Notes under the pieces: generated by a model
Databases searched by the model: none
Told to the model about the DNA's origin: nothing
Seen by the model: the letters and a program-made list of their open reading frames with translations, nothing else
Translations under genes and position numbers: made by a program
DNA from: a virus
Lineage: Duplodnaviria; Caudoviricetes
Reading direction: 5' to 3' (one strand)
Virus record (IMG/VR): IMGVR_UViG_3300033075_001536
Coordinates: 64,001-128,000 of that record
Length of the DNA stretch: 64,000 nucleotides
Shown: positions 42,905-64,000 of the stretch, piece after piece
Layout: the number at the start of each line of letters is the position of its first letter
How positions within the stretch are numbered: position 1 is the first letter of the stretch

Positions 42905-42989
42905 TTTAAGTGGATTATTTTTATTTCTTTATATATAAAATTTTTTAAATAGAAAAATTCTTTGTTAGTAATATTTTATATATAAAGAA

Positions 42990-44069: not shown

Positions 44070-44071
44070 TT

Positions 44072-46548: not shown

Positions 46549-46559
46549 TGATTTATATA

Positions 46560-46895: not shown

Positions 46896-46933
46896 ATCCT
46901 ATTTATTAAATATATTTTTTAATATATACACCA

Positions 46934-47608
46934 ATGTCAAAGTATTTAATATGTGAGTTTAATGAGTTTACAAACATGAGAATGAACCCAGATTCGGTTC
47001 AATCATCTGTTCATGTAGATGATCCACAATTATCTATCAATGCTTTTGATAAGCATCAAGATGCTATTCGTCAAGCTCTTTCAAGAATAGATGGTATTTT
47101 ACATTCTTTATCAAATTCTAATCAGTATAAGTTTTTAAAGGGTAAATTAGGATTAGAGGATCAAAATATCACCAATATGAGAATTATTCGTATTGTTAAA
47201 TCTGGAGTTAGTTATGATGTTTATATTTCATTCACCATTAACAATGAAAATGAATATTGGGGAGTAATTAAAAATATTCTTTCACTTAATCCAGAGGTAA
47301 TATCTGAAGTATTTAAGGACGGTGATTTGGTGCAGACAAAGGAGTGGGTAATTAAAACTAAGGGACTTTTACTAAAAGTGATTAGAAATTTTTTAAAACC
47401 GGATCCAGGAAAATGGAAGCTAATTAATGATAGCATCACCTGTTATTCTTTAGAAACTGGAAAGCTAATGAAAATGGACAAAGGCGCTGAAGTGGAGGTT
47501 CTAAAATGTTATGATGATTTAATTATAATAAAATACGATAATATTAAATATTCACTTCATGGTGATAACTATGTTTATTTTAATTATTGGTTTGAAAAAT
47601 TAATCTAA
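46934..47608 (+). CDS. Hypothetical protein with tag-like start
   Basis: MSKYLICEFNEF; AATATATA upstream. Confidence 0.75.
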   Translation: MSKYLICEFNEFTNMRMNPDSVQSSVHVDDPQLSINAFDKHQDAIRQALSRIDGILHSLSNSNQYKFLKGKLGLEDQNITNMRIIRIVKSGVSYDVYISFTINNENEYWGVIKNILSLNPEVISEVFKDGDLVQTKEWVIKTKGLLLKVIRNFLKPDPGKWKLINDSITCYSLETGKLMKMDKGAEVEVLKCYDDLIIIKYDNIKYSLHGDNYVYFNYWFEKLI

Positions 47609-49183: not shown

Positions 49184-49198
49184 TTCTTATATATTTTT

Positions 49199-50698: not shown

Positions 50699-50756
50699 TC
50701 AAGAATTTTAAGTATTTAATTTTATATATTAAATTCCTAAAACCTTGATCGAATTC

Positions 50757-51155
50757 TTAGTTAAACAAAAACTCCAATTTCATTAGATCTTTAACTTTAG
50801 CTGATGTTAAATTTAAATCATCAAAGTTTATTTTATCATAGGAGAGTGTGTTTTCAACAGCTTGTAGATCTTGCATATCTTTAGAAAATGCTTTTACATC
50901 AACAATATTAACAGCGTCTTTAACTATGTTTCCATCACCATCAATTACTTTTTTAGGAGCTCCATTTTCCATTTCTATCCATTTTTCAAGTATTTTTTTC
51001 TCCATGGTAACTTTATCTTCTACAATAGAAGATAATTCTTTTATAATTCTGGTTAGTTTAAAAGCACAATTGGCATTAATATCCGCTTCAATAAGCGTAT
51101 TGATAGCAGTGATGGTTTCTTTAGTTAATTCTGAATTTTTAACGACTATTTTCAT
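50757..51155 (-). CDS. Hypothetical protein
   Basis: 132-aa ORF upstream of structural genes. Confidence 0.7.
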   Translation of the reverse strand: MKIVVKNSELTKETITAINTLIEADINANCAFKLTRIIKELSSIVEDKVTMEKKILEKWIEMENGAPKKVIDGDGNIVKDAVNIVDVKAFSKDMQDLQAVENTLSYDKINFDDLNLTSAKVKDLMKLEFLFN

Positions 51156-51194
51156 TGATATATTATAATTTTTTATTATATATTTATATGTCTT

Positions 51195-51995
51195 TTATAT
51201 CTTAAAGTTGGTGATTATTAGTTCTCCTCTATTTCCTTCAGATTTTGAAATGTTTCCACTGGAATAATAGACATTGGAATCTGTTATATTATATTCTTTA
51301 TATATATATTGGTAAAATTCTGTATTTGGTAGAGTTAAAATAAATTTACCTTTTATTTCATCAATCTGTGTTTTTAATTCCTTGTGCTCAGAATATTTAT
51401 TCATATTATGTTTATAATAATTAGTATTGACATCTTCTATGATGTATGGTGGATCAATAAAAAATAAAGAATCTTCCGAATCATATTTTTTAATAACTTC
51501 TTTGTAGTCTAAATTTTCAATATAGGTTGTTTTAAGTCTTTGATACAGTTCTTCAATTTGATCGACTATTCTTTCAGTTGATACTGGTTGCCTTTTTTTG
51601 GAATATCCAAAGTTATAGGAACTATCTGAACTTCTTCTAGATGAAAATGACCATTTGGTTAGATATAAAAAACGAAATGCCCACTCGACATCTGAAGTTT
51701 CTTCTTTTTTTAGAGATTTTAAATTTTCAAATATTTCTCTCGAAATTAGAGTTTTTTCAAATTTTTTAGAAAGTTCTTCATGTTTGATATCATCTTTAAT
51801 TACATTAAACATATTTACTAGAGAAGAATCTAAGTCATTATATACTTCTACTTTAGATACGGATCTTGGTTTTTCAAGAAGAACCCACCCAGCACCACCA
51901 AAAAGATCAATAAAGCAATTGTGTTTTGGCAAAATTGAAACAATTTGTTTGGATAGTTTTGATTTTCCACCTAAATAGTTGATAATTGAGTCCAT
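51195..51995 (-). CDS. dam: Dam-like (D12 class) N6-adenine DNA methyltransferase
   Basis: YLGGKSKL, DLFGGAG, EVYNDLD, IDPPY, ELIITNF. Confidence 0.93.
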   Translation of the reverse strand: MDSIINYLGGKSKLSKQIVSILPKHNCFIDLFGGAGWVLLEKPRSVSKVEVYNDLDSSLVNMFNVIKDDIKHEELSKKFEKTLISREIFENLKSLKKEETSDVEWAFRFLYLTKWSFSSRRSSDSSYNFGYSKKRQPVSTERIVDQIEELYQRLKTTYIENLDYKEVIKKYDSEDSLFFIDPPYIIEDVNTNYYKHNMNKYSEHKELKTQIDEIKGKFILTLPNTEFYQYIYKEYNITDSNVYYSSGNISKSEGNRGELIITNFKI

Positions 51996-52022
51996 TGAAT
52001 TTTATATATTAATATATAATCT

Positions 52023-52499
52023 ATGCGTATAATTTTAGAATTTTTAGAATTTATAGATCAATCTTGGAAGAAGGAAGTAGAGGAGTCTATCGAGTTTCAT
52101 ATCTTTGAAGATTTTTTAAATAAATATGGGCTTAAAATATTATTTGCTTGGGGAGTTTGGTCACCAGGTCTTCATGGTTTCCATACCATGCCTATGTTTC
52201 ATTCACTACGACTAGCTCTCCTGGCGTCTGATCCAGATAGAATAGTTGGAACTAAAAATTGTTTAAGAATTAATCTTATGAATGCTGAATGGGGTAGTGA
52301 TGTTGGGGGATTTGATTTTGATTTGGAGATTCGACAAGATGAGGATACAAATTTTGAATTTGAAGATATAGTTGATGCGTTAAGAGATGAGCTTGGATAT
52401 TACATAGATATTGTTGAAATAAAATTGCCAGAAAAAATAGAAAAGATGCATTACCAAATAACAATTGATGTAATTTTTGAAGAAAAGAAGAAAAAATAA
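52023..52499 (+). CDS. Tagged hypothetical protein, paralogous family
   Basis: MRIILEFLEF; HIFEDFLNKYG...LRDELGY. Confidence 0.72.
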   Translation: MRIILEFLEFIDQSWKKEVEESIEFHIFEDFLNKYGLKILFAWGVWSPGLHGFHTMPMFHSLRLALLASDPDRIVGTKNCLRINLMNAEWGSDVGGFDFDLEIRQDEDTNFEFEDIVDALRDELGYYIDIVEIKLPEKIEKMHYQITIDVIFEEKKKK

Positions 52500-52511
52500 T
52501 ATATAAGACAT

Positions 52512-53270
52512 ATGTTAGAAACTATCAAATCACTCCTTAATTTACAAAAGAAAATAGATTTAAAAACACTTCCTTCTCAAGGCTATTTCTATAAAGATGA
52601 TTTTGAACTTTATATTCGTAAAGCAAATATGGAGGATATTATTGAATATGAGTATAATTATGTTAGAGACAATATACTTTTACACATTCATAAAGTGAAA
52701 ACCATTGTGGAGAAAAATGCTATTTTAAAAAATGGATATTCTTTTATTGATTTAAAGTCAATCGATGTGGTTTTTATATTTTTTGAAATTGTTAAATTTA
52801 CTTTGAATAAACCAATTCGAGTAGATTACTTTGATGATGTTTTGGGAAATCCATCCTTAATAGAATTTGGACCATCTAATTTTAATTATTATGACTTTAC
52901 TCCAAATTTAAAAAATTGGAATAAAGAGACTAGAGAGTTCGAAATTGATGGTTATAAATATTCTTTACCAACAATTGGTGTGGAGAACTCGATTACTAAT
53001 TTTTTAATTGATAAAAATGAAAAAAATCAACAGCAATATGGTAAATATTCATATGACTTTACCTATTTTTTAAATCATAAGCCAAAATTAACTTTTGATG
53101 AAATTGAAAATATGTTACAGATATTTAATTTTGATTTAGAGGAATCTGAAATTTTAAAAGTCAGAGGAATTGTTAAGATGTTATCTCCAATTCAAAAATA
53201 TTCTTTAAAGAGAGGTGATAAGGTGATTGACATTAGTTCTAAGATAGACTTGGAGACTATTTGGAAATAA
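52512..53270 (+). CDS. Baseplate hub subunit-like protein (T4 gp26-like)
   Basis: LPSQGYFY, L...D..FIFF.I...T, PTIG. Confidence 0.55.
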   Translation: MLETIKSLLNLQKKIDLKTLPSQGYFYKDDFELYIRKANMEDIIEYEYNYVRDNILLHIHKVKTIVEKNAILKNGYSFIDLKSIDVVFIFFEIVKFTLNKPIRVDYFDDVLGNPSLIEFGPSNFNYYDFTPNLKNWNKETREFEIDGYKYSLPTIGVENSITNFLIDKNEKNQQQYGKYSYDFTYFLNHKPKLTFDEIENMLQIFNFDLEESEILKVRGIVKMLSPIQKYSLKRGDKVIDISSKIDLETIWK

Positions 53271-53272
53271 AT

Positions 53273-53653
53273 TTACCATCCGCGAAATTTAAAGTTAGAA
53301 AACCCACGAAGTCTTTTATTTACTGGCTTTCTTTTTACAGAAATGTGTAATTTTTTAATAGGAATTTCTATTCTTTTCGGTATTCCGGAAAAATGAAATT
53401 TTCCTTCTTTTGTTTCAATAGCAATTTCAGCTCTATAAAATTCATTGATTCTATCAACCGATTCTTCTAATATTTCTTTTATTTCAATGTATTTTATTTC
53501 TCTATTTGGTAATAGGATAAAATCTATACTTGATATAGATTCACCATCGGTTGGATTATTATAAAGCCAAAATTTTGTTTCTGTGGTAAATCCATAATCC
53601 ATCAACTCTTGTAAATAATCAGTGACTTCGTCTATAACCTTTTCAGCATTCAT
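53273..53653 (-). CDS. Hypothetical protein, paralogous family
   Basis: Likely start MNAEKV; DEVTDYLQELMDYGF...VDRI. Confidence 0.68.
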   Translation of the reverse strand: MNAEKVIDEVTDYLQELMDYGFTTETKFWLYNNPTDGESISSIDFILLPNREIKYIEIKEILEESVDRINEFYRAEIAIETKEGKFHFSGIPKRIEIPIKKLHISVKRKPVNKRLRGFSNFKFRGW

Positions 53654-53657
53654 AATT

Positions 53658-53667
53658 AATATATATT
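53658..53667. promoter_or_regulatory. Palindromic AATATATATT, putative bidirectional promoter
   Basis: Lies in a 17-nt gap between divergent starts 53653 and 53671. Confidence 0.55.
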
Positions 53668-53670
53668 CGG

Positions 53671-54486
53671 ATGAGAATCTTAAAATTTTTACCATTTTTC
53701 GAAAATATTTCTGAGAATCCAATTGCTGATATACAAGAATATAATCAGAAGATGAAAAATGCTTTTTTTGACAAGTTATTTTTTCTTGGTAAGATAAAAT
53801 TTGATGCTTTGGTGGATTTTGGATGTGCGGATGGATCTTTATTAGAAAAAATTAGCAAATATTCAAAAGCTGATTTATTTGGATATGATGTTGAGCCACA
53901 TGCTGTTGATCTATCAAAAAATAGACTTGGAAATAAAGCAACTATTCTAGATAATTGGCATGAAATTTTGGGACAAGTGAATGAATATCATTCACCAGCA
54001 ATTTTACTAAGTTCCGTAATTCATGAAGTATATTCTTATGATAAATATGTAAATTATTTTTGGAATGATTGCGTTTTTAATGACAAATTCAAATATATTA
54101 TTATTCGAGATATGATCCCATCTGGTGATATTGATGATGTCCATAACTTTTCAGAAGATGTTAGAAAGGTAAAATCAAAGATCAATAATAAATATTTAAA
54201 TGACTTTGAAAAGATTTGGGGTAAAATGGAAGATAGTTATAGACAATTCGCACATTTCCTTTTGAAATATAAATATATACATAACTGGAATAGAGAAGTG
54301 AAAGAAAATTATCTTCCTTTGACCATTTCAGAATTAAAAGAAAAAATACCAAGTGGGTATGAAATTGTATATGAAAGTAATTTTATTCTTCCTTATTTGC
54401 AACAAGAAGTAAATAGAGATTTTGGGATTAAATTCAGACAACCAACACACACAAAGATGATTATAAAAAATAATAATTTCAAATGA
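53671..54486 (+). CDS. Class I SAM-dependent methyltransferase with tag
   Basis: LVDFGCADG, GYD, LSSVIHEVYSY, IIIRD. Confidence 0.82.
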   Translation: MRILKFLPFFENISENPIADIQEYNQKMKNAFFDKLFFLGKIKFDALVDFGCADGSLLEKISKYSKADLFGYDVEPHAVDLSKNRLGNKATILDNWHEILGQVNEYHSPAILLSSVIHEVYSYDKYVNYFWNDCVFNDKFKYIIIRDMIPSGDIDDVHNFSEDVRKVKSKINNKYLNDFEKIWGKMEDSYRQFAHFLLKYKYIHNWNREVKENYLPLTISELKEKIPSGYEIVYESNFILPYLQQEVNRDFGIKFRQPTHTKMIIKNNNFK

Positions 54487-55190
54487 TACACATTAGAAGA
54501 TTTAACGAAAACATCATTGATTTCAATACGGATAATGTGAAGTCATTTAAGAAAGAACTATTTAAGGAACTCAAAAAGAAAGGTGCTGGTCATGGATATT
54601 TTGGACCGCCAAAGGGATTAAATCTACAAGAACTTAAAAAAATTGGAGATAAATATGACATTGAGGTGGTCGATTACGAGACATTTTTCAGAGAGCTTCC
54701 AACAAAGGAAGATCAAAAAACTGCTCCAAGGAAACATGGTGGTCCACCAGCATTTGCTTTAGTAAATCCAACTACACATAAAGCTCGTGTAGTTCTTATT
54801 GCTCCAAAAGTTGATATTGGAATTGGTGAGATGATTTGTCATATGCTTACCCACGAAAATATACACATTCAACAATTTGCCAAAATTAAAGCAAAGAAAG
54901 GAAAGTTGGATGATTATGATGTTGCTCCTGGCAGTCCAAATGATAGAAAAAAATATTTCTCCGATAAAAAAGAAGTGATGGCATTTTCACATTCAATTGT
55001 GGATATGCTAGTTAATCAACAAGGATGTGAAACATTTGAAGAATGTATAAAAAAATTGGACAGAAACCCAATTTGGGGAGATATTAGAAGAAGCTGTGAT
55101 AAAGATATTCAAAACCGATATAAAAAATATATTTATCAATATCTAAAAAAAGAATTTCCAGATGAAGATCAAAAATTGGACAAAATTTAA
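54483..55190 (+). CDS. Zincin-like (HExxH) protein with tag
   Basis: MIHIRRFNE; LTHENIHIQQ...YFSDKKEVMAF. Confidence 0.7.
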   Translation: MIHIRRFNENIIDFNTDNVKSFKKELFKELKKKGAGHGYFGPPKGLNLQELKKIGDKYDIEVVDYETFFRELPTKEDQKTAPRKHGGPPAFALVNPTTHKARVVLIAPKVDIGIGEMICHMLTHENIHIQQFAKIKAKKGKLDDYDVAPGSPNDRKKYFSDKKEVMAFSHSIVDMLVNQQGCETFEECIKKLDRNPIWGDIRRSCDKDIQNRYKKYIYQYLKKEFPDEDQKLDKI

Positions 55191-55956
55191 TGAAAGTTCC
55201 GACAGTCATATTGTAAAAGGAGTTGAAATAACTAAATTTTTTCAAAGTGATAGATATAAAAAATTTATTCAACACTTTTTAATTGAAGAAAATGAATTAA
55301 AAGAATATTTTTCGGATGTGTTGGACGACAATTCTGATATTAAATTTGAATTAACCAAGGATACTATTTTTTTTCTTGGAAATAAAAGAGTATATGGATT
55401 TAAGCAAGCTGATTCATCTTTTATAAAATACAGCGTTTCTCTATTAAGGACGGATGGAAAGCCAACTAGTATTAAATCATTTAAGGAATATTTGAATAAA
55501 TATTTAGATCTATTAGAAGATATTGAAATTGCAATAGAAAGAATTCTAGATGATTATGATATTAAACATAAAGTTGAAGACAATATAGATCATTTTAGAG
55601 AACAAAAAAGTATAGTCATTTTATTTTACAAGGAAATTCCTTTTAAAGAGCTAATGTCTGAATTTAAATTATTTTTAGCAGAAAATGATGCTTCATCTTG
55701 GTTAGTGAAAGGAATTTCAGAATTTAAAAAAATATTTACGGAATTTGGTGCTCCTGAAAGTTTTAAACTAGAAGACCACATTGATCTTCATCCAGATTGG
55801 GAAGAAAATGAGTTTGGTGATGTGGTGGTTGGTGTGTCGCTTAATGATGAAATATCTGCTATTGGAACCATTGATAAAGAAACGGGACAAATTGATTATA
55901 ATACCAATGAAATAGAAAAAGTAATAGAAGAATTATTTGAAAATGAAATACATTAA
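55162..55956 (+). CDS. Tagged hypothetical protein, paralogous family
   Basis: MKIKNWTKFNES; ELKEYFSDVLDD...IERILDDY. Confidence 0.75.
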   Translation: MKIKNWTKFNESSDSHIVKGVEITKFFQSDRYKKFIQHFLIEENELKEYFSDVLDDNSDIKFELTKDTIFFLGNKRVYGFKQADSSFIKYSVSLLRTDGKPTSIKSFKEYLNKYLDLLEDIEIAIERILDDYDIKHKVEDNIDHFREQKSIVILFYKEIPFKELMSEFKLFLAENDASSWLVKGISEFKKIFTEFGAPESFKLEDHIDLHPDWEENEFGDVVVGVSLNDEISAIGTIDKETGQIDYNTNEIEKVIEELFENEIH

Positions 55957-56509
55957 AAAATTTGAAGAAATAAAACTAACACTAAAAGATGATCTAGGGA
56001 CATATTTCTACAACCTAGGTGATATGGATGGATTTAATTTGGAATACAGACCAGATGACTTCTATTTTTTTAAACTATCTCATATGGACGGATCCTTTGA
56101 ATATAACATGGATATTTTTGATGAGATACAAGAGTCATTGGATCGTGCGGCTGATGATGGATTAAAATTAGATAGAAGTTGGATAGAACCGAATATACCT
56201 GAATTTATGTCGAGTGTTGCTTGTGATAGAAAGACAGCAATAAAAAATAAATGGAATTCGATTTGGATACCAATGTCTAATAATGAATACCCTAGTCCAA
56301 ATGATTTAAGATTTTCTAAATTTCCTATTTATAGAAAAATTTATGTTGATAGCAAAAATAAAAAAATGGAATCCATGGTAAGGTCAAATAAAAAGATGGA
56401 TATGGATGTTGAATATCCGACCTCTCCATCTGATTTTATTTATACCAATAATTTAAAAAGTATTACTTTTTTATTTTTTGAGCAAGACTTAAAAAAATCT
56501 AAATATTAA
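55943..56509 (+). CDS. Tagged hypothetical protein, paralogous family
   Basis: MKYIKKFEE; DDLGTYFYNLGD...LDRAADDG. Confidence 0.72.
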   Translation: MKYIKKFEEIKLTLKDDLGTYFYNLGDMDGFNLEYRPDDFYFFKLSHMDGSFEYNMDIFDEIQESLDRAADDGLKLDRSWIEPNIPEFMSSVACDRKTAIKNKWNSIWIPMSNNEYPSPNDLRFSKFPIYRKIYVDSKNKKMESMVRSNKKMDMDVEYPTSPSDFIYTNNLKSITFLFFEQDLKKSKY

Positions 56510-57950
56510 TAGACTCAATTCTTTTAAACATCTCATTTCTGTCGGATTCTAACCATTTCATGATGTCTAAAACTTTATCAGAAAATCCCGCCAAACAAAA
56601 TACATTAGATTCTGGAAATTGTAAAGTCCCAAGTCCAGCCATATCCCAAGAATAAATAAATGGATTTGCACCAAATTTATTTTTATAATCGTTATATGCG
56701 GCTTTTGGTGTATAGTGTCCCATCCACCCTTGCATGTCGGATAGAATTATAACCCTATCATATTTTTTATTAGCCACTTTAAATATATTATGAAAATTCG
56801 TGCCGCCTCCGTTAAAACTAAATGAATTTTTAATAGTCATCACTGAATCCAATGGATTGTATGATTCATATTTAGCAGTGGTGTCGAAAGTCATCACATC
56901 ACAATTGTTTGCTTTTGCTAAAACAGCGGTGAATAGACCAGCAATTTCATGTGCTCTACCTCTCATAGACCCTGATGTATCTAAAGCAATTAAAGTTTCT
57001 CCTTCAAATTTTGGAACATTTGAAACAGATATATCCAGAGCCTTTGAAATAGCAACTTGAACATCACGAACTTCCTTAGAAGATCCTAATTTTCCAATTT
57101 CGTCATAAGCTGTTTTAAATCTAAATGGAAGAATACGAGATCCTTTAACCATTTGCTCATTTTGTAGTAGCTCACAAACTTGTGGAATAATTCCAGGAGC
57201 TTGATTGATTATATTTCTTAAATTCCTCAATAGAGCAAAATATCCAATTTTTTTGGATCCAATAAGTTCTCCCCAAGCATCCGCCTTTAATTTAGACAAA
57301 TCTTCTCCTGTTTCAGATGCTTTTTGACCAGCTTCTGATAACTTAGCTTCCCAAGTTTCGGTAGATTTTAGTCCACCTTTAATAAGAGATTCTAAAGCAA
57401 GTTTATTTCTATCAGTTGGCACTGGGTGAACTATGTTTACCAAGTCAACTAATTTAATTTCTTTATTTTCTCCGCGATATTTCGCAAGTTGATAAGCATC
57501 AAATTTATCAAATGCTTTTGCAAATCCTTTTTTCAAAGAATTTGGAAATTTTGGAGATTTCTTATCGGTTTTATTATTTAGATAATAAGATAATATTTCA
57601 AGCATATCATCTACACGAACAACTACTTTATCATAGAAATTCTTAGACCATTCTTTTCCTGAGGAATAAGATGCTAATTCACCCGCAAGAGCATGTGAAA
57701 TACTTCTCATACCAAATTCATCACGAGCAAAAATTGCAGCTTTTGCAGCAAACTCCGGATCTACTTTTGATAAATGATTTTTTAGATCTTTCAAGGAATC
57801 ATCCGCAGAACGATAGAATTCATTATTAACAAATGATGTTAGTAGCAAAGAAACCAAAGCTAGCTTATCTGATTCTTTATAGGCTTCTCCGCCAGCTTTA
57901 TTGATGGTTAGAGTTTTTGGTCTTGTTAGTGTTGTGTTAAATTTTGACAT
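56499..57950 (-). CDS. rsr: Ro60/Rsr TROVE-domain RNA-binding protein with C-terminal vWA domain
   Basis: NKAGGEAY, ARDEFGMRS, FDAYQLAKY, TWE..LS, ALLRNLRNI, ILPFRF, MIDAS DTSGSM, GGT, ILSDMQ, GFSD. Confidence 0.93.
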   Translation of the reverse strand: MSKFNTTLTRPKTLTINKAGGEAYKESDKLALVSLLLTSFVNNEFYRSADDSLKDLKNHLSKVDPEFAAKAAIFARDEFGMRSISHALAGELASYSSGKEWSKNFYDKVVVRVDDMLEILSYYLNNKTDKKSPKFPNSLKKGFAKAFDKFDAYQLAKYRGENKEIKLVDLVNIVHPVPTDRNKLALESLIKGGLKSTETWEAKLSEAGQKASETGEDLSKLKADAWGELIGSKKIGYFALLRNLRNIINQAPGIIPQVCELLQNEQMVKGSRILPFRFKTAYDEIGKLGSSKEVRDVQVAISKALDISVSNVPKFEGETLIALDTSGSMRGRAHEIAGLFTAVLAKANNCDVMTFDTTAKYESYNPLDSVMTIKNSFSFNGGGTNFHNIFKVANKKYDRVIILSDMQGWMGHYTPKAAYNDYKNKFGANPFIYSWDMAGLGTLQFPESNVFCLAGFSDKVLDIMKWLESDRNEMFKRIESINI

Positions 57951-57967
57951 ATATTTATATTTTATTT

Positions 57968-58135
57968 TTAATAGTTGTATGCTTTGTCTAATAGCTCTTT
58001 TAATTTCTCTTCTGTAAAGTATTCCTCTTCACTTTTTATTATCTCAATTAGTGCTTCTGCCATTCCGGCTCCAGACCATTCATCATAATCTACTCTATTG
58101 TCCACTAAATAATTTAAAGCTTCAATTTTTTTCAT
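57968..58135 (-). CDS. Small hypothetical protein, 55 aa, directly upstream of Ro60
   Basis: Manual translation MKKIEALNYLVDNRVDYDEWSGAGMAEALIEIIKSEEEYFTEEKLKELLDKAYNY. Confidence 0.6.
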   Translation of the reverse strand: MKKIEALNYLVDNRVDYDEWSGAGMAEALIEIIKSEEEYFTEEKLKELLDKAYNY

Positions 58136-58158
58136 TTGTCTTTATATTTTTTTAAATT

Positions 58159-58205
58159 AAAAAACCAGAATAAAAATTCATTTCTGAAAATTCACTCTGG
58201 TTTTT
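58159..58205 (-). terminator. Hairpin plus U-tract, probable terminator of the ncRNA transcript
   Basis: Minus strand aaaaaccagagtgaa...tttattctggtttttt; the stem needs G-U pairs that exist only on the minus strand. Confidence 0.6.
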
Positions 58206-58215
58206 ATTTATAAGG

Positions 58216-58471
58216 TGCAAACAAGAAAATCTAGACTAAGATTGTCGCAAAGATTTATTTTCTGAAACTTTACCGGCTGTGTGAGGCTTCAGTCATGCCT
58301 GTTATATTTTTTACAAGATATTTACAAATAACTTGAACTCTTAAAGGTTGTTATCCTAATTTTTTCACCAAATTGTCTGTTTCAATCTTTTTGGTAGTTG
58401 TAGCTATCAGCTCTAAACACTTTCCGTTTTAATAGTAGTCGAAGTAACTCAGAACTATTACTATGTTTGCA
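58216..58471 (-). ncRNA. Candidate Y-like RNA 1 (about 256 nt)
   Basis: Ends pair (UGCAAACA/UGUUUGCA); shares AGUAAU..GAGUUACUUCGA with unit 2; no ORF; upstream of Ro60. Confidence 0.55.
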
Positions 58472-58483
58472 TTTTTTAAAAAA

Positions 58484-58551
58484 ACAAGAGAAAGTTTTCA
58501 AAGAGTGTTTTTTGATTCCATATCGAAGTAACTCTTTAAATTACTACTTGT
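58484..58551 (-). ncRNA. Candidate Y-like RNA 2 (about 68 nt)
   Basis: ACAAG/CUUGU outer stem, AAAGAGU/ACUCUUU inner stem, GAGUUACUUCGA motif. Confidence 0.55.
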
Positions 58552-58559
58552 GTCTTCTT

Positions 58560-58619
58560 ATATTTGAACAAGAAAAAAAGTTTTAAATTTATTAAAAAAT
58601 CTTTTCTGTGTTCAAATAT
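58560..58619. repeat. 11-bp inverted repeat atatttgaaca/tgttcaaatat
   Basis: Seen directly; arms overlap TAnnTTTG-like sequence. Confidence 0.6.
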
Positions 58620-58668
58620 TTGTAGTAGTATATAGTGTACCTAAAATTTGAATTTTTATGAAGGTGGA

Positions 58669-59322
58669 TTATTTATGATTAAATAGAGCTAATGTAAAAT
58701 CCTCACTAGAATAATCATTGATTAGACTTAATTCACTTTTTAGTCCGTGTGATAGATATTTCTTTAGCAAATTTTGGTTGTAGTAGGTATATCTTAATGT
58801 TTTGTGGTTTTTGGTTTGTCTAACATTACTCGATATTCTATCTTTATCATTTTCGATAAAATTGGCCATAATTCCTTTATTACATATTGTTTGTCCATAT
58901 TTAAAGAACTCTAAAACATCTCTTTCATTCATCCCAACTGTAAATACCCCAGACGCAACGATCCAATCATGATTCTCTTTTATATCATGTATGCTATCCA
59001 CTACTTTAAATTTTCTATCTGGATATTTCTTTTTTGCATTTTTAATCATACTTTTTTGAATATCCACTCCTAGATAATCTACCTTTTTCTGCATTGCGTC
59101 TGCCCATCTAGATAGATCACCTAATCCACAACCGTAGTCTAGTAAACTATCACCACTTTTTATGTATTTCAAAAACACATTAAATCTATCTCTTTGTGAT
59201 CCAGAACTAACCCACCCCACCGCATCTGGGTCATAAATATCCTTCGTACATCTGTGTTGGTAGAAATCTTCTATAAATTTCCTTGGATTTTTAAGTTCTT
59301 CGAATAATTTTAAATATTGCAT
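58669..59322 (-). CDS. Class I SAM-dependent methyltransferase with tag
   Basis: MQYLKLFEE; VGW.S..SQ..RF, LLDYGCGLG, YLGVDI, DWIVASGVF. Confidence 0.88.
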   Translation of the reverse strand: MQYLKLFEELKNPRKFIEDFYQHRCTKDIYDPDAVGWVSSGSQRDRFNVFLKYIKSGDSLLDYGCGLGDLSRWADAMQKKVDYLGVDIQKSMIKNAKKKYPDRKFKVVDSIHDIKENHDWIVASGVFTVGMNERDVLEFFKYGQTICNKGIMANFIENDKDRISSNVRQTKNHKTLRYTYYNQNLLKKYLSHGLKSELSLINDYSSEDFTLALFNHK

Positions 59323-59337
59323 TTAATATATATTAAA
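59322..59337. promoter_or_regulatory. Perfect palindrome TTTAATATATATTAAA, putative bidirectional promoter
   Basis: Fills the 15-nt gap between divergent ATGs at 59322 and 59338. Confidence 0.6.
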
Positions 59338-59691
59338 ATGAGAATCAAATTATTTAAAGACTTCAATGAGCATTTTTCAATTGGCCCAGTTCCAATCGTA
59401 AGAGAAGAAAGACTTATTTCTTTTACTAGAAAAGCATTTGCTGAGTTTAATGAATGGAAACTAACTGATAAATTTATGCAAGATAAGATCATTAAATTAA
59501 TTGAAGATACGATTCGAGATCCATTTAGAGGACTTGGAAAACCAGAACAATTAAAAGGTCGTGGTAAAAAACACGGACATCTAAATAAAGCTTCTTGGTC
59601 AAGAAGAATTTCTGATGAGCATAGACTAGTCTATGAGGTTTCCGGAACAGACATTAAAATAACTTCTTGTAAGGGACATTATGATGATTAA
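59338..59691 (+). CDS. yoeB: YoeB/Txe-family ribosome-dependent RNase toxin with tagged N-terminal extension
   Basis: KIIKLIED..RDPF.GLGKPEQLK, WSRRISDEHRLVY, SCKGHY; likely start MRIKLFKDFNE. Confidence 0.9.
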   Translation: MRIKLFKDFNEHFSIGPVPIVREERLISFTRKAFAEFNEWKLTDKFMQDKIIKLIEDTIRDPFRGLGKPEQLKGRGKKHGHLNKASWSRRISDEHRLVYEVSGTDIKITSCKGHYDD

Positions 59692-60178
59692 GTCTTTTGG
59701 TAATTTTATTAATGAAAATGTTAAATCTGAATTAGATTCAATATTGTATCTATTAACTGATTTAGGACTTGAGGCCACAGTTGAAGGATGGGATATAATC
59801 TCAAAGAGATGGTCTATTGTTAATTTAGATTCAATAATTGGTGTGTTACTCACAACAAAGTCCTTGAGTGATAGTATTGACTATCGAATAAAGATTACTA
59901 AAAGGTTAATGGGAAATAGAAATCCGGCAATTCCAATACGAATGGAGGATATCAATTATTTTAAAAATTTGCACGAAACTTCGGAATATCAAGAATTTTT
60001 AGATAGACTTAGTGAATTTTGTGAAAATAAATATATTATAAAACCTTCTAATAATATTTATCCTCTAAAAGGTAGTGTTGAAGTAAATATTGGGGATTTG
60101 AGTGATATTGTCGGTGATTATACCATCGGTCTTGTTAGAATTATTTTCCTAACCAAAATTAAAAATCCGAACCTTTAG
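59681..60178 (+). CDS. Tagged hypothetical protein, paralogous family
   Basis: MIKSFGNFINE; ELDSILYLLTDLGL...FLDRLSEFC. Confidence 0.75.
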   Translation: MMIKSFGNFINENVKSELDSILYLLTDLGLEATVEGWDIISKRWSIVNLDSIIGVLLTTKSLSDSIDYRIKITKRLMGNRNPAIPIRMEDINYFKNLHETSEYQEFLDRLSEFCENKYIIKPSNNIYPLKGSVEVNIGDLSDIVGDYTIGLVRIIFLTKIKNPNL

Positions 60179-60195
60179 TAGATTCGGATTTTTTT
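60161..60195. terminator. Bidirectional intrinsic terminator
   Basis: aaaaatccgaa...ttcggattttttt between convergent genes. Confidence 0.75.
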
Positions 60196-60197
60196 AT

Positions 60198-62741
60198 TTA
60201 ACATTTGCTATATCCACACTGTGAGCATTTAAAACACCCCTCACTCATTATCATAGTTCCTTCCATGAAACATTCTGGACAAGCTTCTTTTACTTTACTA
60301 ACATCCAAATATTTTTTCAAAGAACGAGCAATTGCCTTATTGAATGATATGACAATTCCTTTAGCTTTTAGTAGTTGTTCATAAATAAAATGTATATCTG
60401 CACCATGCCTCAGAGAAGTAGAAATCATTCTTGTTAATGCCTCTTCTTCATCCGACTCAAAATGTTCAGAAATGTTTTCTAAAGTAAATGTATCCTCTGG
60501 ATCTGGTCCTAATTTCACAATTAAGCTATAACATCCGCTTCTAACTTTTGATAGTTTTCCTTCTTTCCATCTTGGAGAAAGTGCTAAATTTTTCTTTTTG
60601 AATGCAAATACCTCATATGGATCCTTGCCCATCAATCCAACAATAACGACCCAATTATTTCCTTGAACTGTTAGGTGGTGTATATCACAATCTAATGTTT
60701 TTGGTCTTTTTAAAGCAGTTGTCTTTTTAATAGAAGTCATTTCTTCCTTTGAGTCTATAGCAGACAATACAGAAGTCATGGTTCCAGCTCTATAAGTTGT
60801 TACACCTTTAATTACTCCTGTATTATAAGCATCTTTATATACCTTTTTGAAGTCTTCGAATGGATATTCATTTGGAAAGTTTAGTGTTTTACTCATTGCA
60901 GAGTCAATATATTTTGCAAATACAGCCATGGTGTTTACATGTTCATCTGTATTCAACTCTGATGTTGTGGCTGCCCAAGAAGCTGTTGAGTCCCACTCGT
61001 TAAGATCTTCTAAATATCTAACCGCGTAATCTTTGACAACAGTTTCTCTTAGAAGTCCTCTTGACTTATCAAATTTCCAATTATATCCTTCAAAAGTTGT
61101 TTTTAGAAGATTTTCATCACCTTCTTTAATCCATACCCATGCAGTATCACCATCCACCTGATAAGTTTTATTTTCCCAATCAATGTTTTTAGGTTTGTGT
61201 AGACCATCTGGTGCATATGGAAATATAGTTGTTCTTACATACATTGGCATAAACAATGGCTCTAGTCCACCAGATACATTGTTTGCAAAAACACTGGAAT
61301 TTCCAGTAGGTTGAATAGATAAGAGATGAGAGTTTCTAAGTCCATATTTATTAATCATATCAACTGTTTCAGAAGATAGATTTTTAATGAAATTTCCAGC
61401 CATATATTTGACTTTATCAAACATTGGAAATACACCTTTTTCCTCAGCTAATTGTGCAGATGCTTGGTAAGCAGTATTTGCTATAAATGACATTAATTTT
61501 TCAGTTAAATTAATTCCATCCTTTGAGCCATATCTTGTTTTTAACATCATTAACGCAGATCCATATCCCATTACACCTAATCCAATTCTTCTTTTGTCTT
61601 TTAAATTTTTCTTTTGAGACTCTAGTGGAACATTTGTCTTATCATTGACATTATCCATAAATCGAACAGCAATTGGAATTATTTTAGATAATTTTTTGTA
61701 ATCCCAATCTCTATTTTCAAAATCCACAAATTGTGTCAGATTTAGTGATCCAAGTAAACAAACTCCTCCGATTGGTAAAATTTGTTCTCCACATGGGTTG
61801 GTTGCATTAATATATTCACAATAATATAAATTATTTAAACGATTCATTAAATCAACAAATAGAATACCTGGCTCATTTCGATTGTAAGTGGATCTCATGA
61901 TAATATCCCACAACTCGTTAGCATTTTGATAGGTTTTATAAATTATTGTTTTATATCCTTTTGATTTCCATTCTCTTATATTTCCGTTCCATTCTTTTTT
62001 ATACTCTGTTGAATTGGTTTCATAATCTGGGAATTCTAAATTCCAAGATAGATTATTTTCTACAGCATTCATAAAATCATCTGTTACTAGAACAGACATA
62101 TTAAATTTGGTTAGTCTTCCTGGAGTTTGTTTTGAAGTGATAAATTCTTCAATATCTGGGTGCCAAATACTCATGGTGACCATTTGAGCACCTTTTCTTA
62201 TTTTTTGTTTTGACTTTTCTTTCTTGGTTTTTTGGCCAGATCCTTCTGTAATAACGGAAGATTGTGTGTCCCACATATCTAACATTCTGATTGATCCTGG
62301 ACTTTCGTTCCCAATTCCACGGATAAAAGCTCCTCTGGGTCTCATCACATCTGCGCAAAATCCATACCCACCTTCTGACTTTAAAATCAAAGCTTGTCTT
62401 CTTAATGTGTCTAGAATTCCTTCCATTGAATCTTGATCTTCACCAACAAATCCATCGACAAAACAGTTGATATAGGTAGTTCCTTTCAATCCTGTTCCAG
62501 CATTGGAAGTAATTCTCCCACCAGGAACGAATTTAAAGTCTTCTAACAATTTTAGAAATTGTGTTGTCCAGTATTCTGGATCTTTTTCAATACTTGCTAA
62601 ATCTTTAGCAACTCTTAATTGAGTATCATTGATGGTCTCATTACCAAATCGATAAGTTTGTTCATAAACCTCTTTAGAAAATTCATCGATAAATTTTGTG
62701 TTTGATCTATATTGATCTGTTTTTTGATCTATTACTTGCAT
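60198..62741 (-). CDS. nrdJ: Class II (adenosylcobalamin-dependent) ribonucleotide reductase
   Basis: PGGRI..AG, NCFV, TNPCGEQ, CLLGSLNL, RRIGLG, QPTG, SGGLEP, TTYR; C-terminal PYEVF domain and CPEC..EGC..C..CGYSKC. Confidence 0.92.
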   Translation of the reverse strand: MQVIDQKTDQYRSNTKFIDEFSKEVYEQTYRFGNETINDTQLRVAKDLASIEKDPEYWTTQFLKLLEDFKFVPGGRITSNAGTGLKGTTYINCFVDGFVGEDQDSMEGILDTLRRQALILKSEGGYGFCADVMRPRGAFIRGIGNESPGSIRMLDMWDTQSSVITEGSGQKTKKEKSKQKIRKGAQMVTMSIWHPDIEEFITSKQTPGRLTKFNMSVLVTDDFMNAVENNLSWNLEFPDYETNSTEYKKEWNGNIREWKSKGYKTIIYKTYQNANELWDIIMRSTYNRNEPGILFVDLMNRLNNLYYCEYINATNPCGEQILPIGGVCLLGSLNLTQFVDFENRDWDYKKLSKIIPIAVRFMDNVNDKTNVPLESQKKNLKDKRRIGLGVMGYGSALMMLKTRYGSKDGINLTEKLMSFIANTAYQASAQLAEEKGVFPMFDKVKYMAGNFIKNLSSETVDMINKYGLRNSHLLSIQPTGNSSVFANNVSGGLEPLFMPMYVRTTIFPYAPDGLHKPKNIDWENKTYQVDGDTAWVWIKEGDENLLKTTFEGYNWKFDKSRGLLRETVVKDYAVRYLEDLNEWDSTASWAATTSELNTDEHVNTMAVFAKYIDSAMSKTLNFPNEYPFEDFKKVYKDAYNTGVIKGVTTYRAGTMTSVLSAIDSKEEMTSIKKTTALKRPKTLDCDIHHLTVQGNNWVVIVGLMGKDPYEVFAFKKKNLALSPRWKEGKLSKVRSGCYSLIVKLGPDPEDTFTLENISEHFESDEEEALTRMISTSLRHGADIHFIYEQLLKAKGIVISFNKAIARSLKKYLDVSKVKEACPECFMEGTMIMSEGCFKCSQCGYSKC

Positions 62742-62761
62742 TCATATTTGTTATTTTTTTA

Positions 62762-63757
62762 TTATAGAAAATCTATATTATTTAGTTTGTTTAAGTTATA
62801 TTTGAATTTTTCGTTGTTTAATATTCCAGTTACCACAGAGATATTTACCTCATAGATATTTTCATATGAATCAACTTTGAAAATGGAACTATCATAATCA
62901 CATTCGATGACAACACCGGTTATTGATATGGTGTTTCCTTGAAAGTCCTCCCAATCAAATTCCAGTTCGGTTCCTGGGTAGATATTTCTATTTTTTATTT
63001 CTTTTGGATTACTTGTTTTACCAATGTGATCTTGAAGTTCATTAATAATCATATTTCTCCATTTATTATCTAGTAGTTTAAACATATTAAATAAATTATC
63101 GGAAAAATAAACAGATAGCTCATTGAATAGTTCTATATTTGTGAAACTTTCATTGGTTAAGTGAGTCTTTAATAAGAAGTAATAGGTATTGAAATCAACC
63201 CTAGATGGTTTTCTTCTGTTATTTAAAAAGTTTATGGTGGTGTTTTCAGTTAAAACCTTATACACTTTTTCCTTTACTAACTTGGATCTTAAATATTGCT
63301 CGTTATCGTTGGATTCTAGGAAAAATGGGGAAGACCTATCTAAATCAAACTTGTCATTAAAGTACATAAAAGAGGCATCTATTTCTTCCTCCTCTGTCTT
63401 TTCTTCTTTTTTGCCTTTAAATATAGAGTCATATTTAAGAGAGTGTTTACCTTCAACTTTATGTTTAGATAGAATAACTTCAGGATCAGTATCGTCCACC
63501 TCTCCTATTATTTCTTCTAAAATCTCATCTACATTCTTAGATTCGTCCTTTTTTGGTGACTCTTCTTCAAACAAATCATCATCCGATATTTCAATAACTA
63601 TATCTATATCTTCGTCTTCATCTGAAATGGATGATCCAGATTCTGGCTCACATTGAGCCTCTTCTTCAATCTTTTCTTCTTTTTCAAAATCTTTAGGCTC
63701 TTCATCTAAAATTTCGTCATCTTTTTCAATTTCGTCATCTAATTCTTTTTTAATCAT
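62762..63757 (-). CDS. Hypothetical protein with highly acidic N-terminus
   Basis: 331-aa ORF between the helicase and nrdJ. Confidence 0.75.
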   Translation of the reverse strand: MIKKELDDEIEKDDEILDEEPKDFEKEEKIEEEAQCEPESGSSISDEDEDIDIVIEISDDDLFEEESPKKDESKNVDEILEEIIGEVDDTDPEVILSKHKVEGKHSLKYDSIFKGKKEEKTEEEEIDASFMYFNDKFDLDRSSPFFLESNDNEQYLRSKLVKEKVYKVLTENTTINFLNNRRKPSRVDFNTYYFLLKTHLTNESFTNIELFNELSVYFSDNLFNMFKLLDNKWRNMIINELQDHIGKTSNPKEIKNRNIYPGTELEFDWEDFQGNTISITGVVIECDYDSSIFKVDSYENIYEVNISVVTGILNNEKFKYNLNKLNNIDFL

Positions 63758-63775
63758 TAAGATTTTTATTATTTT

Positions 63776-64000
63776 TTATACGTCTATAAACGTATCATTT
63801 TCTAGCAAAAGATAAGTTGGATTTAAATTTATCTTAACTTGTGATTTTAGAAAATCACCATCTCTCTGCTTCAACAATTTGAATCTAAATACATTTTGTC
63901 TTTTCATTTCTTCGGTTCTTATTATAGCAAAGAAGGTGTCAGCAGTTTCAGCAATTGCTTTAGATTCTGGGACAGATTCCAAGGTAATATCATTGGAGTT
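63776..64000 (-). CDS. C-terminus of a DnaB/gp41-like replicative helicase (partial)
   Basis: ESKAIAETADTFFAI...FKLLKQRDG; the frame extends to the window edge. Confidence 0.75.
   Translation of the reverse strand, partial: NSNDITLESVPESKAIAETADTFFAIIRTEEMKRQNVFRFKLLKQRDGDFLKSQVKINLNPTYLLLENDTFIDV

What the first reader, a model, noticed from the sequence alone, without database searches (positions are those of the whole stretch)
59338..59691. Orphan YoeB toxin with intact catalytic motifs and a capsid-targeting-like leader
Seen: a YoeB fold with KPE, HRLVY and terminal GHY motifs, an extra N-terminal MRIKLFKDFNE leader, and no YefM/Phd-like antitoxin on either side. Known: YoeB cleaves mRNA in the ribosomal A site. 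Inference: it could be a virion-delivered translation shut-off or exclusion factor, possibly kept inactive until the leader is cleaved. Alternatively, the overlapping downstream gene (59681) may be a non-canonical antitoxin.
Basis: partly seen in the sequence, partly recalled or inferred. Interest (0 to 1): 0.72.

Follow-up and report, generated by a model that had tools for sequence, protein, structure and literature searches.

The report
Antitoxin-less YoeB RNase in a megaphage
A giant uncultured phage carries an intact copy of the bacterial toxin YoeB, an enzyme that cuts messenger RNA on the ribosome, without its usual antidote gene and behind an N-terminal tag shared by dozens of unrelated proteins of this phage, so it is most likely a phage-run RNA-cutting tool rather than a toxin-antitoxin pair.

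Summary
ORF 59338..59691 (+) is a full-length YoeB-family RNase (Pfam 86 bits, TIGR02116 77 bits, model TM 0.87-0.92 to solved YoeBs). It keeps every family-invariant residue, including the catalytic Glu/Arg/His/Tyr. It also has a translated 25-residue N-terminal extension. No YefM/Phd or other cognate antitoxin is found in the 170-kb record.

Three things change the reading.
- The "leader" is not specific to YoeB. The same peptide (M-K/R-x-L/I-K/R-x-F-E/N-E/N) starts at least 38 of 234 ORFs, against 1.8 expected. Carriers include a methyltransferase, an AAA_28 kinase and a PQ-loop membrane protein.
- The record is a fragment of a megaphage related to the 634-735 kb phages LR745206 and LR756502, so "no antitoxin in the genome" covers only part of it.
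- The downstream ORF belongs to a paralog family of at least 12 members. It is missing next to one orthologous YoeB, and a second, more distant tagged YoeB subclade is monocistronic.

Best reading: a captured YoeB kept as an antitoxin-free, phage-controlled ribosome-dependent mRNA endonuclease, analogous to T4 RegB. Capsid delivery and a non-canonical antitoxin remain possible but are not supported. The scan noted the tag before, in this genome and in another megaphage.

The parts
59323..59336 (.). 14-nt perfect palindrome TTAATATATATTAA. It fills the 15-nt spacer between the divergent methyltransferase and YoeB start codons and holds one copy of the phage's promoter-like motif (T)AATATATA on each strand, ending 4-5 nt before each ATG.
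   Evidence: Sequence read directly. The motif AATATATA occurs 102 times in the record, and 56 copies end 4-8 nt before an ORF's ATG. The palindrome is invariant in the orthologous loci L002 and L008, although the coding sequence around it has diverged.
59338..59370 (+). Codons 1-11 of the YoeB gene (MRIKLFKDFNE): the lineage-wide N-terminal tag.
   Evidence: The tag pattern occurs on 38 of 234 ORFs against 1.8 expected. Nine different codons encode the aliphatic position, so selection acts on the peptide. The tag is kept in all 9 tagged YoeBs. pLDDT is below 50.
59371..59412 (+). Codons 12-25: a variable, Pro-rich linker between the tag and the YoeB domain.
   Evidence: It is poorly conserved and carries in-frame indels among orthologs. 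It is predicted to be disordered. Bacterial relatives start at the position of residue 25/26.
59413..59682 (+). YoeB RNase domain (residues 26-115). The catalytic equivalents are E70, R96, H114 and Y115. A basic loop insertion of about 7 residues (G74-S86) is specific to this subclade.
   Evidence: PF06769 86.4 bits and TIGR02116 76.9 bits. PDB YoeB chains at 2e-15. AF2 core pLDDT above 90, with Foldseek target-normalised TM 0.87-0.92 to YoeB structures. All invariant columns of a 62-sequence family alignment are kept.
59683..59691 (+). C-terminal Asp-Asp tail after the catalytic His-Tyr, then the stop codon.
   Evidence: The tail reads HY-[DGE]-D-(K/H) in all tagged phage YoeBs and is absent from the nearest bacterial relatives. 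A few bacterial YoeBs have it too (P0234, P0132).
59681..60178 (+). Downstream ORF of 165 aa, acidic (pI 5.25), with its start overlapping the YoeB stop by 11 nt. It carries the same N-terminal tag and belongs to a dispersed paralog family. Candidate non-canonical antitoxin, not supported.
   Evidence: No Pfam match. jackhmmer finds 12 paralogs in the record (alignment A3). The ortholog in L002 is 31% identical. The ORF is absent in the P0005 contig. pI. Atlas look-alikes are viral hypotheticals only.
60161..60193 (.). Hairpin with T runs on both sides, between the convergent downstream ORF and the ribonucleotide reductase gene. It ends the two-gene YoeB unit.
   Evidence: Terminator scan: 14-pair stem. 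Sequence.
58669..59322 (-). Divergently transcribed class I SAM-dependent methyltransferase of 217 aa, also carrying the N-terminal tag (MQYLKLFEEL). It is the conserved neighbour of YoeB in subclade 1.
   Evidence: Methyltransf_31, _12, _25, _23 and _11 above their cut-offs. The same divergent pair with a 15-17-nt spacer occurs in L002, L003, L004, L008-L010 and the P0004 contig.

Best explanation
The gene encodes an active YoeB-type, ribosome-dependent mRNA endoribonuclease. A lineage of AT-rich megaphages (relatives of LR745206 and LR756502) captured it from bacteria and kept it without the YefM antitoxin. It sits under the phage's own promoter-like element (TAATATATA, 5 nt before the ATG), which would give a leaderless or nearly leaderless mRNA. 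It is fused through a flexible linker to the N-terminal tag that this phage group places on a sixth or more of its proteins. During infection the enzyme would enter the ribosomal A site and cut mRNA, shutting down or turning over translation to the phage's advantage, much as T4 RegB does. RegB has the same RelE/YoeB fold and no known antitoxin. Control would come from the timing and level of expression, and possibly from the tag or the acidic C-terminal tail, not from a dedicated antidote. Shown here: family membership, intact catalytic residues, conservation in two phage subclades, absence of a cognate antitoxin at the locus, and the genome-wide nature of the tag. Inferred: RNase activity, the ribosomal target, a host-takeover role and leaderless expression.
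For: Family membership and active site. Long-term purifying selection: seven subclade-1 sequences, down to 61% identity with the window's protein, and two subclade-2 sequences at 45-47% all keep E70, R96, H114 and Y115. The two subclades are each well supported (SH-aLRT 98 and 97). No antitoxin: PF02604 is absent at E<=10. The cognate-antitoxin profile gives only noise but is validated on 15 of 25 other viral loci. In one ortholog contig (P0005) YoeB is followed after 4 nt by the convergent reductase gene. In subclade 2 (L131-L135) YoeB stands alone between opposite-strand genes. Phage-style expression: a conserved TAATATATA-N4-5-ATG element is shared with 56 other genes. Accessory gain: the complete 634,780-bp relative LR745206 has TROVE next to the homolog of ORF 62762..63757, without the methyltransferase-YoeB-ORF-reductase block, and has no YoeB or YefM anywhere. 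Precedent: T4 RegB shares the YoeB/RelE fold, is proposed to act on the ribosome, and may need no antitoxin (PMC3014915).
Against: No activity data exist. YoeB has little sequence specificity (own knowledge), so an unregulated copy should cut phage mRNAs as well; how the phage avoids this is unexplained. The record is only part of a probably much larger genome, so a trans-encoded inhibitor cannot be excluded. In most subclade-1 loci an acidic, translationally coupled ORF follows the gene, which looks like a toxin-first TA operon. Subclade 2 has a conserved 118-aa CxxC neighbour of unknown role. The expression class (early or late) of the TAATATATA element is unknown.
Confidence: 0.5

Rival explanations
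1. Toxin-first, non-canonical TA pair. The acidic 165-aa downstream ORF (59681..60178) binds and neutralises YoeB, and the two-gene unit works as an addiction, exclusion or abortive module.
For: The start overlaps the YoeB stop by 11 nt. There is no promoter motif of its own, and a terminator follows directly. The ORF is acidic (pI 5.25) and the toxin core basic (pI 9.5). A co-directional overlapping ORF also follows YoeB in L002/L003 (31% identical ortholog) and in the P0006 and P0004 contigs.
Against: The ORF is one of at least 12 paralogs scattered through the record, which has only one YoeB. It has no DNA-binding or known antitoxin domain. It is missing in the P0005 contig and in both subclade-2 contexts. 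Tight packing with overlapping start and stop codons is the rule throughout this genome.
Confidence: 0.17
2. Virion cargo. The N-terminal tag works like the T4 capsid-targeting sequence, so YoeB is loaded into the prohead, perhaps trimmed, and injected with the DNA as an immediate translation shut-off factor.
For: The tag is N-terminal, about 10 residues long and joined by a disordered linker. It resembles the T4 CTS MKTYQEFIAE in M1, K2, an aromatic or aliphatic residue at 4, Q/K at 5 and F at 7 (CTS sequence from own knowledge; CTS concept from PMC3012670). The phage has a T4-type gp23 capsid protein. Selection on the tag acts on the peptide, not on the nucleotides. Another agent of this scan reached this reading for another megaphage (e1-5347126).
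Against: The tag sits on at least 38 ORFs in 34 unrelated groups, including an AAA_28 kinase, a methyltransferase and a PQ-loop membrane protein. The YoeB tag has no (L/I)-x-E site. No prohead protease is present in the record, although the record is cut at gp23. No protein with internal tag-like repeats (a putative scaffold) was found in the record, nor in the ORF just upstream of the capsid gene of LR745206.
Confidence: 0.13
3. RNA-surveillance or repair accessory. YoeB acts with the neighbouring Ro60/TROVE protein with its Y-RNA-like region, the methyltransferase and the phage RNA ligase. It cuts mRNA on stalled ribosomes, or processes particular RNAs, instead of causing general shut-off.
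For: In the window YoeB lies 1.4 kb from a TROVE/vWA Ro60 homolog (56499..57950). It is always paired with the methyltransferase in subclade 1. An Rnl1-type RNA ligase is at 1566..2786. Jumbo phages are known to carry RNA-repair sets that include TROVE proteins (PMC7824862).
Against: Subclade-2 YoeBs have different neighbours: a PAS-like protein and a class II aminoacyl-tRNA synthetase (Pfam tRNA-synt_2). LR745206 has TROVE without YoeB. The synteny spans only closely related genomes, so it says little about function.
Confidence: 0.1
4. A canonical or other trans-acting antitoxin is encoded in the unsequenced remainder of the megaphage genome, so the gene is not truly an orphan.
For: The record ends inside the capsid gene. 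Its closest relatives are 634-735 kb (PMC9723777). The 170 kb may therefore be about a quarter of the genome.
Against: In bacteria and in other viral contigs the antitoxin lies directly upstream (76 of 80 and 15 of 25 loci). The complete relative LR745206 has no PF02604 match. Nine tagged YoeBs in at least six different contexts all lack it.
Confidence: 0.1

Closest known systems
Bacterial YoeB (Txe/YoeB family, PF06769/TIGR02116) of the yefM-yoeB type II toxin-antitoxin system
   Same: Same family by sequence: 40-42% identity to solved YoeBs and up to 62% to metagenomic bacterial ones. Same fold, and the same catalytic Glu/Arg/His/Tyr and family-invariant residues.
   Different: No upstream YefM/Phd gene and no autoregulated operon. 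A phage promoter motif lies 5 nt from the ATG. The protein has a 25-residue N-terminal tag plus linker, a basic loop insertion of about 7 residues and an Asp-Asp tail. It is encoded by a lytic-type megaphage rather than a chromosome, plasmid or prophage.
Phage T4 RegB endoribonuclease
   Same: A phage-encoded RNase of the RelE/YoeB structural family. It inactivates mRNAs, probably on the ribosome, has no known antitoxin, and carries an extra N-terminal element relative to YoeB/RelE (PMC3014915).
   Different: RegB has no detectable sequence similarity to YoeB and a different arrangement of active-site residues (His48/His68). It targets GGAG in Shine-Dalgarno regions with the help of ribosomal protein S1. 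The present protein is a bona fide YoeB by sequence, and its specificity is unknown.
T4 capsid-targeting sequence (CTS) of internal proteins IPI-III
   Same: A short N-terminal peptide shared by otherwise unrelated proteins of one phage, with similar spacing of Lys2 and Phe7 (sequence from own knowledge; concept from PMC3012670).
   Different: T4 uses it on a handful of small head proteins and removes it at (L/I)-x-Glu. Here the tag is on at least 38 ORFs, including enzymes and a membrane protein. The YoeB copy lacks that site, and no packaging or cleavage is shown.
Cami1, a CRISPR-associated RelE-family ribosome-dependent RNase
   Same: Another case of a RelE/YoeB-fold, ribosome-dependent RNase recruited without a protein antitoxin. 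It appears among the structural matches (8phj/8phb).
   Different: Cami1 is a 380-aa fusion controlled by a cyclic-oligoadenylate sensor domain, and it is a host defence protein. The phage protein has no sensor domain.

Membership tests
YoeB/Txe toxin family (PF06769, TIGR02116) | Sequence match to the family models above the curated cut-offs, over the full model length | tested here: met
   PF06769: 86.4 bits (cut-off 27), model positions 1-80 of 80. TIGR02116: 76.9 bits (cut-off 51.8).
YoeB/Txe toxin family (PF06769, TIGR02116) | RelE/YoeB microbial RNase fold (two helices packed on a four-stranded sheet) | tested here: met
   AF2 model with core pLDDT above 90. Foldseek target-normalised TM 0.87-0.92 to 2a6r, 2a6q, 6n90 and 8yxv.
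YoeB/Txe toxin family (PF06769, TIGR02116) | Catalytic residues equivalent to E. coli Glu46, Arg65, His83 and Tyr84 (residue roles from own knowledge of Kamada & Hanaoka 2005) | tested here: met
   E70, R96, H114 and Y115 align with them. They are invariant in the 9 tagged phage sequences.
YoeB/Txe toxin family (PF06769, TIGR02116) | Ribosome-dependent cleavage of A-site mRNA, and growth arrest on expression | not testable with these tools
   Needs expression and cleavage assays.
yefM-yoeB type II toxin-antitoxin system | A Phd/YefM-type (or other cognate) antitoxin gene directly upstream in the same operon | tested here: not met
   The upstream neighbour is a divergent methyltransferase 15 nt away. 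No PF02604 match in the record at E<=10. The cognate-antitoxin profile gives a best E of 0.96, with a positive control of 15 of 25 viral loci.
yefM-yoeB type II toxin-antitoxin system | Toxin neutralised by a labile protein partner, and operon autorepressed by the complex | not testable with these tools
   Needs co-expression and DNA-binding assays.
T4-type capsid-targeting sequence cargo | Short conserved N-terminal peptide shared by unrelated proteins of the phage | tested here: met
   38 of 234 ORFs against 1.8 expected, in 34 unrelated groups.
T4-type capsid-targeting sequence cargo | Removal by the prohead protease at an (L/I)-x-Glu site just after the tag | tested here: inconclusive
   MRIKLFKDFNE has no (L/I)-x-E, although several orthologs read LFE. 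No Peptidase_S77 gene is in the record, but the record ends inside gp23, where the protease gene would be expected.
T4-type capsid-targeting sequence cargo | Carriers are head-internal proteins found in virions | not testable with these tools
   No proteomics are available. Carriers include a PQ-loop membrane protein and metabolic-type enzymes, which argues against a uniform cargo role.

The most novel reading that the evidence does not exclude
The lineage-wide N-terminal tag is a handling signal that loads many enzymes into the megaphage head. YoeB would then be an injected, ribosome-dependent RNase that stops host translation on DNA entry: a virion-delivered toxin-family effector that needs no antitoxin because it is sequestered in the capsid. 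A second, more speculative variant is that YoeB acts like RegB, as a temporal switch that cuts the phage's own leaderless AUG-AAA class of mRNAs at codon 2.
Probability: 0.13. Interest if true: 0.85.

Novelty: new variant of a known kind. Interest (0 to 1): 0.55.

Why it matters
YoeB is a textbook type II toxin whose biology is framed around its antitoxin. Here a clade of YoeBs has been kept for a long time by lytic-type megaphages with the catalytic site intact and no cognate antitoxin, in at least six genomic contexts, two of them monocistronic. That gives a sequence-level link between TA toxins and phage RNases such as RegB, which so far were connected only by fold. It also raises a testable question: how can a virus run a nearly sequence-blind ribosomal RNase without an antidote? 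The gene is also a natural experiment for the megaphage N-terminal tag. The bacterial protein lacks the tag and the phage added it through a linker, so comparing tagged and untagged forms could show what the tag does for dozens of other proteins. Only 8 of 50,697 catalogued phage records carry any YoeB relative, and none of them is of this kind.

Tried and rejected
- **Complex prediction, YoeB (A2) against the downstream ORF (A3).** No verdict: score 0.01 in both runs against a mark of 0.32. This counts neither for nor against binding.
- **Scan of viral contigs with the single protein.** It found no relatives. The alignment-based scan found 25 viral YoeBs, none with the extension.
- **Word-based homolog search for the downstream ORF.** It found only the ORF itself. 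Pfam, NCBIfam, PHROGs and the ESM Atlas gave nothing interpretable.
- **Host assignment from the nearest bacterial YoeBs.** The best species-level matches are scattered over Cyanobacteria, Bacteroidota, Spirochaetes and others at 57% identity or less, so no host signal emerged.
- **Cluster names.** They gave no taxonomy for the closest metagenomic relatives.
- **Lead from another agent, that the tag equals the repeat unit of the head scaffold.** No protein with internal tag-like repeats is in the record, nor in the 707-aa ORF upstream of the capsid gene of LR745206. Not reproduced here, but the scaffold of this phage lies outside the record.
- **Prohead protease S77.** Not found. This is uninformative because the record is truncated.
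- **Single or double origin of the tagged YoeBs.** The tree backbone is unresolved, with only 87 columns.
- **A nucleotide-level explanation of the tag (AT-rich unstructured start).** Rejected as the only cause: the aliphatic position uses nine different codons in genome-typical proportions.
- **Literature searches.** Searches for phage-encoded orphan YoeB and for capsid-targeting tags in megaphages found no prior description.

Full report
**What is at the coordinates.** ORF 59338..59691 (+) encodes 117 residues. Residues 29-115 match the whole Pfam YoeB_toxin model (86.4 bits; cut-off 27) and TIGR02116 (76.9 bits; cut-off 51.8). Solved YoeB chains match at 2e-15 to 1e-11. Aligned to E. coli YoeB, the residues known from the literature as catalytic (Glu46, Arg65, His83, Tyr84; my own knowledge) correspond to E70, R96, H114 and Y115. 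In a 62-sequence family alignment the protein keeps all 9 invariant and all 16 nearly invariant positions. An AlphaFold2 model has pLDDT above 90 over the core. It superposes on YoeB crystal structures with target-normalised TM 0.87-0.92.

**How it differs from bacterial YoeB.** Compared with 85-aa bacterial relatives (up to 62% identical), the protein has three extras.
- A 25-residue N-terminal extension: a tag (residues 1-11) and a Pro-rich variable linker (residues 12-25).
- A basic loop insertion of about 7 residues (G74-S86).
- An Asp-Asp tail after the catalytic His-Tyr.

The extension must be translated. There is no ATG, GTG or TTG in frame between codons 1 and 47, and orthologs keep the frame through in-frame indels. 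AlphaFold2 leaves residues 1-25 disordered and undocked. This gives no support to an autoinhibitory leader, although the alignment is shallow for that part.

**The phage.** The window is bases 64001-128000 of a 170,678-bp IMG/VR record with 29.6% G+C. The record ends inside a gp23-type capsid gene. Its UvsX-like recombinase is closest (46-57% identity) to the uncultured megaphages LR756502, LR745206, LR756504 and LR756501/LR756503 (634-735 kb), followed by the Lak phages. The Ro60/TROVE protein is 70% identical to that of LR745206. These records belong to the clade of the largest known phages (PMC9723777). The record is therefore very probably a fragment of a megaphage. CheckV's figure of 78% completeness should not be trusted, and 'genome-wide absence' refers only to the part in hand.

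**Antitoxin search.**
- The upstream neighbour is a divergently transcribed class I SAM methyltransferase whose start codon lies 15 nt from the YoeB start.
- PF02604 (Phd/YefM) has no match in the record, even at E<=10.
- In 76 of 80 bacterial loci that encode relatives, a 70-90-aa ORF ends at the yoeB start. A profile built from these ORFs gives only noise on the six-frame translation of the record (best E 0.96).
- The same profile detects the antitoxin directly upstream in 15 of 25 other viral contigs carrying YoeB (E 5e-4 to 1e-23). The negative result is therefore meaningful.
- The complete relative LR745206 has neither YoeB nor YefM.

**Relatives of the tagged YoeB.**
- Six metagenomic proteins (P0001-P0006, 114-121 aa, 61-91% identical) share all three extras.
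- A profile search of 1.84 billion representatives finds only this cluster at E<=1e-30. It adds two more distant tagged YoeBs, P0135 and P0137 (45-47% identity). They have the tag, the linker and an HY-(G/E)-D-(K/H) tail but no loop insertion, and they keep the catalytic tetrad.
- On a tree the two groups are each well supported (SH-aLRT 98 and 97). The backbone is unresolved, so one or two captures are both possible.
- Among 50,697 catalogued phage records only 8 hold any YoeB relative. All are at most 40% identical, none has the extension, and none is a megaphage.

**Genomic contexts.**
- In subclade 1 the divergent methyltransferase-YoeB pair is constant, with a 15-17-nt spacer.
- A co-directional overlapping ORF follows YoeB in the window, in L002/L003 (31% identical ortholog) and in the P0006 and P0004 contigs.
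- In the P0005 contig YoeB is followed after 4 nt by the convergent ribonucleotide reductase gene.
- In subclade 2 (L131-L135) YoeB is monocistronic between genes on the opposite strand. A conserved 118-aa CxxC protein lies next to it in two different arrangements. That protein has no homolog in this record and no Pfam match.
- In LR745206 the TROVE gene lies next to the homolog of ORF 62762..63757. The methyltransferase-YoeB-ORF-reductase block is therefore an accessory indel.

**The downstream ORF.** ORF 59681..60178 (165 aa, pI 5.25) overlaps the YoeB stop by 11 nt and has no promoter motif of its own. A hairpin terminator follows it at 60161..60193. This resembles a toxin-first TA operon. 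However, the ORF belongs to a dispersed intragenomic family. jackhmmer collects 12 paralogs that share an (E/D)-I-x-x-I-x-Y-I-L-x-D-E-G block and an E-F-x-D-R-L-x-E-I block. It has no recognisable antitoxin or DNA-binding domain. With its absence in the P0005 context and in subclade 2, this makes a dedicated antitoxin role unlikely, though not excluded.

**The 'leader'.**
- The pattern M-x(0-3)-[aliphatic]-[K/R]-x-[F/Y]-[E/N..]-[E/N..] starts 38 of 234 ORFs. From the internal frequency of the same core, 1.8 would be expected. Looser variants would add more.
- With the first 15 residues removed, these 38 proteins fall into 34 BLAST-unrelated groups.
- Carriers include YoeB, the methyltransferase, an AAA_28 P-loop kinase whose domain begins right after the tag, and a PQ-loop membrane protein.
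- Nine different codons encode the aliphatic position, in genome-typical proportions, so selection acts on the peptide.
- The tag also occurs in LR745206 and in the metagenomic relatives.

The tag is thus a property of the phage lineage, not of YoeB. YoeB is informative because its bacterial ancestors lack the tag, so the phage added it. The tag resembles the T4 capsid-targeting sequence (concept: PMC3012670; sequence from memory). Its breadth, its presence on a membrane protein and the lack of an (L/I)-x-E site in the YoeB copy argue against a simple cargo signal. I could not reproduce, in this record or in LR745206, the link to a scaffold repeat that another agent proposed for another megaphage.

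**Expression signals.**
- AATATATA occurs 102 times in the record, and 56 copies end 4-8 nt before an ORF's ATG.
- The methyltransferase and YoeB starts are separated by the perfect palindrome TTAATATATATTAA, which supplies one copy of the motif to each strand. It is invariant in L002 and L008 although the coding sequence has diverged.
- The same motif, at the same distance, precedes the subclade-2 genes.
- If the motif is a -10-like promoter element, these mRNAs are leaderless or nearly so. That is an inference, and the temporal class is unknown.

**Interpretation.** The best-supported reading is a captured YoeB kept as an antitoxin-free, phage-controlled, ribosome-dependent mRNA endonuclease. 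Its closest functional analogue is T4 RegB, which has the YoeB/RelE fold, probably acts on ribosomes and may need no antitoxin (PMC3014915). A comparative review of jumbo phages does not mention RelE/YoeB-type genes (PMC7824862), and I found no earlier description. How the phage protects its own mRNAs remains open. The rivals cannot be excluded with sequence tools: a non-canonical antitoxin downstream, virion delivery through the tag, a role in RNA surveillance with Ro60, or an inhibitor encoded elsewhere in the unsequenced genome. They are scored accordingly.

Noticed in passing
whole record; in the window e.g. 4642..5511(-), 27024..27443(-), 35798..36346(+), 36346..36726(+), 46560..46895(-), 55943..56509(+), 58669..59322(-), 59681..60178(+): A genome-wide N-terminal peptide tag (consensus MK[YH][LI]K[KL]F[EN][EN]F) sits on at least 38 of 234 ORFs in 34 unrelated groups. 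It is selected at the peptide level and also occurs in the complete megaphage LR745206. Its function is unknown. The basic-hydrophobic pattern would also fit an Hsp70-binding motif, and the record encodes its own DnaK and DnaJ (read from their N-terminal sequences only), but this was not tested.
   Followed up: partly
whole record; e.g. window 59325..59332, 35785..35793, 27448..27456: The promoter-like motif (T)AATATATA occurs 102 times, and 56 copies end exactly 4-8 nt before an ATG. This implies a large class of leaderless or near-leaderless mRNAs. Only 17 of the 69 motif-proximal genes carry the peptide tag, so the two features are separable.
   Followed up: partly
window 1..64000 and G000:C1:170445-170678: The record is probably a fragment of a megaphage of more than 600 kb. 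It ends inside the gp23-like capsid gene, and its nearest relatives by UvsX and TROVE are LR756502, LR745206 and LR756501 (634-735 kb). CheckV's 78% completeness looks wrong for this lineage.
   Followed up: partly
window 58669..62741 compared with L105 (LR745206.1:232090-251535): The block methyltransferase - YoeB - paralog ORF - class II-type ribonucleotide reductase (about 4.1 kb) is absent from LR745206. There the TROVE gene lies about 580 nt from the homolog of ORF 62762..63757.
   Followed up: yes
window 59681..60178, 27024..27443; G000:C1:204-632, 36143-36715, 42368-43092, 59834-60268 and others: A dispersed family of at least 12 small acidic paralogs shares an EI..I.YIL.DEG block and an EF.DRL.EI block after the N-terminal tag. 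There is no match to any known family.
   Followed up: partly
L131:641-997(-), L135:1001-1357(-): A conserved 118-aa protein with two CxxC pairs and a C-terminal WRRNNNLD(Q/E)L tail lies next to the subclade-2 tagged YoeB in two different arrangements (convergent and divergent; 60% identity). It is a possible functional partner. It has no Pfam match and no homolog in this record.
   Followed up: partly
window 56499..57950(-) and 58136..58668: A Ro60/TROVE-vWA protein (80 bits to TROVE) sits beside a roughly 530-nt ORF-free stretch. Other first-reader notes propose that this stretch holds Y-RNA-like genes. I did not examine it.
   Followed up: no
G000:C1:61094-62992(-), 23218-24264(-), 25264-25704(-): Judged from their N-terminal sequences only, the record appears to encode its own DnaK, a DnaJ and a possible GrpE. 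No family search was run on them.
   Followed up: no
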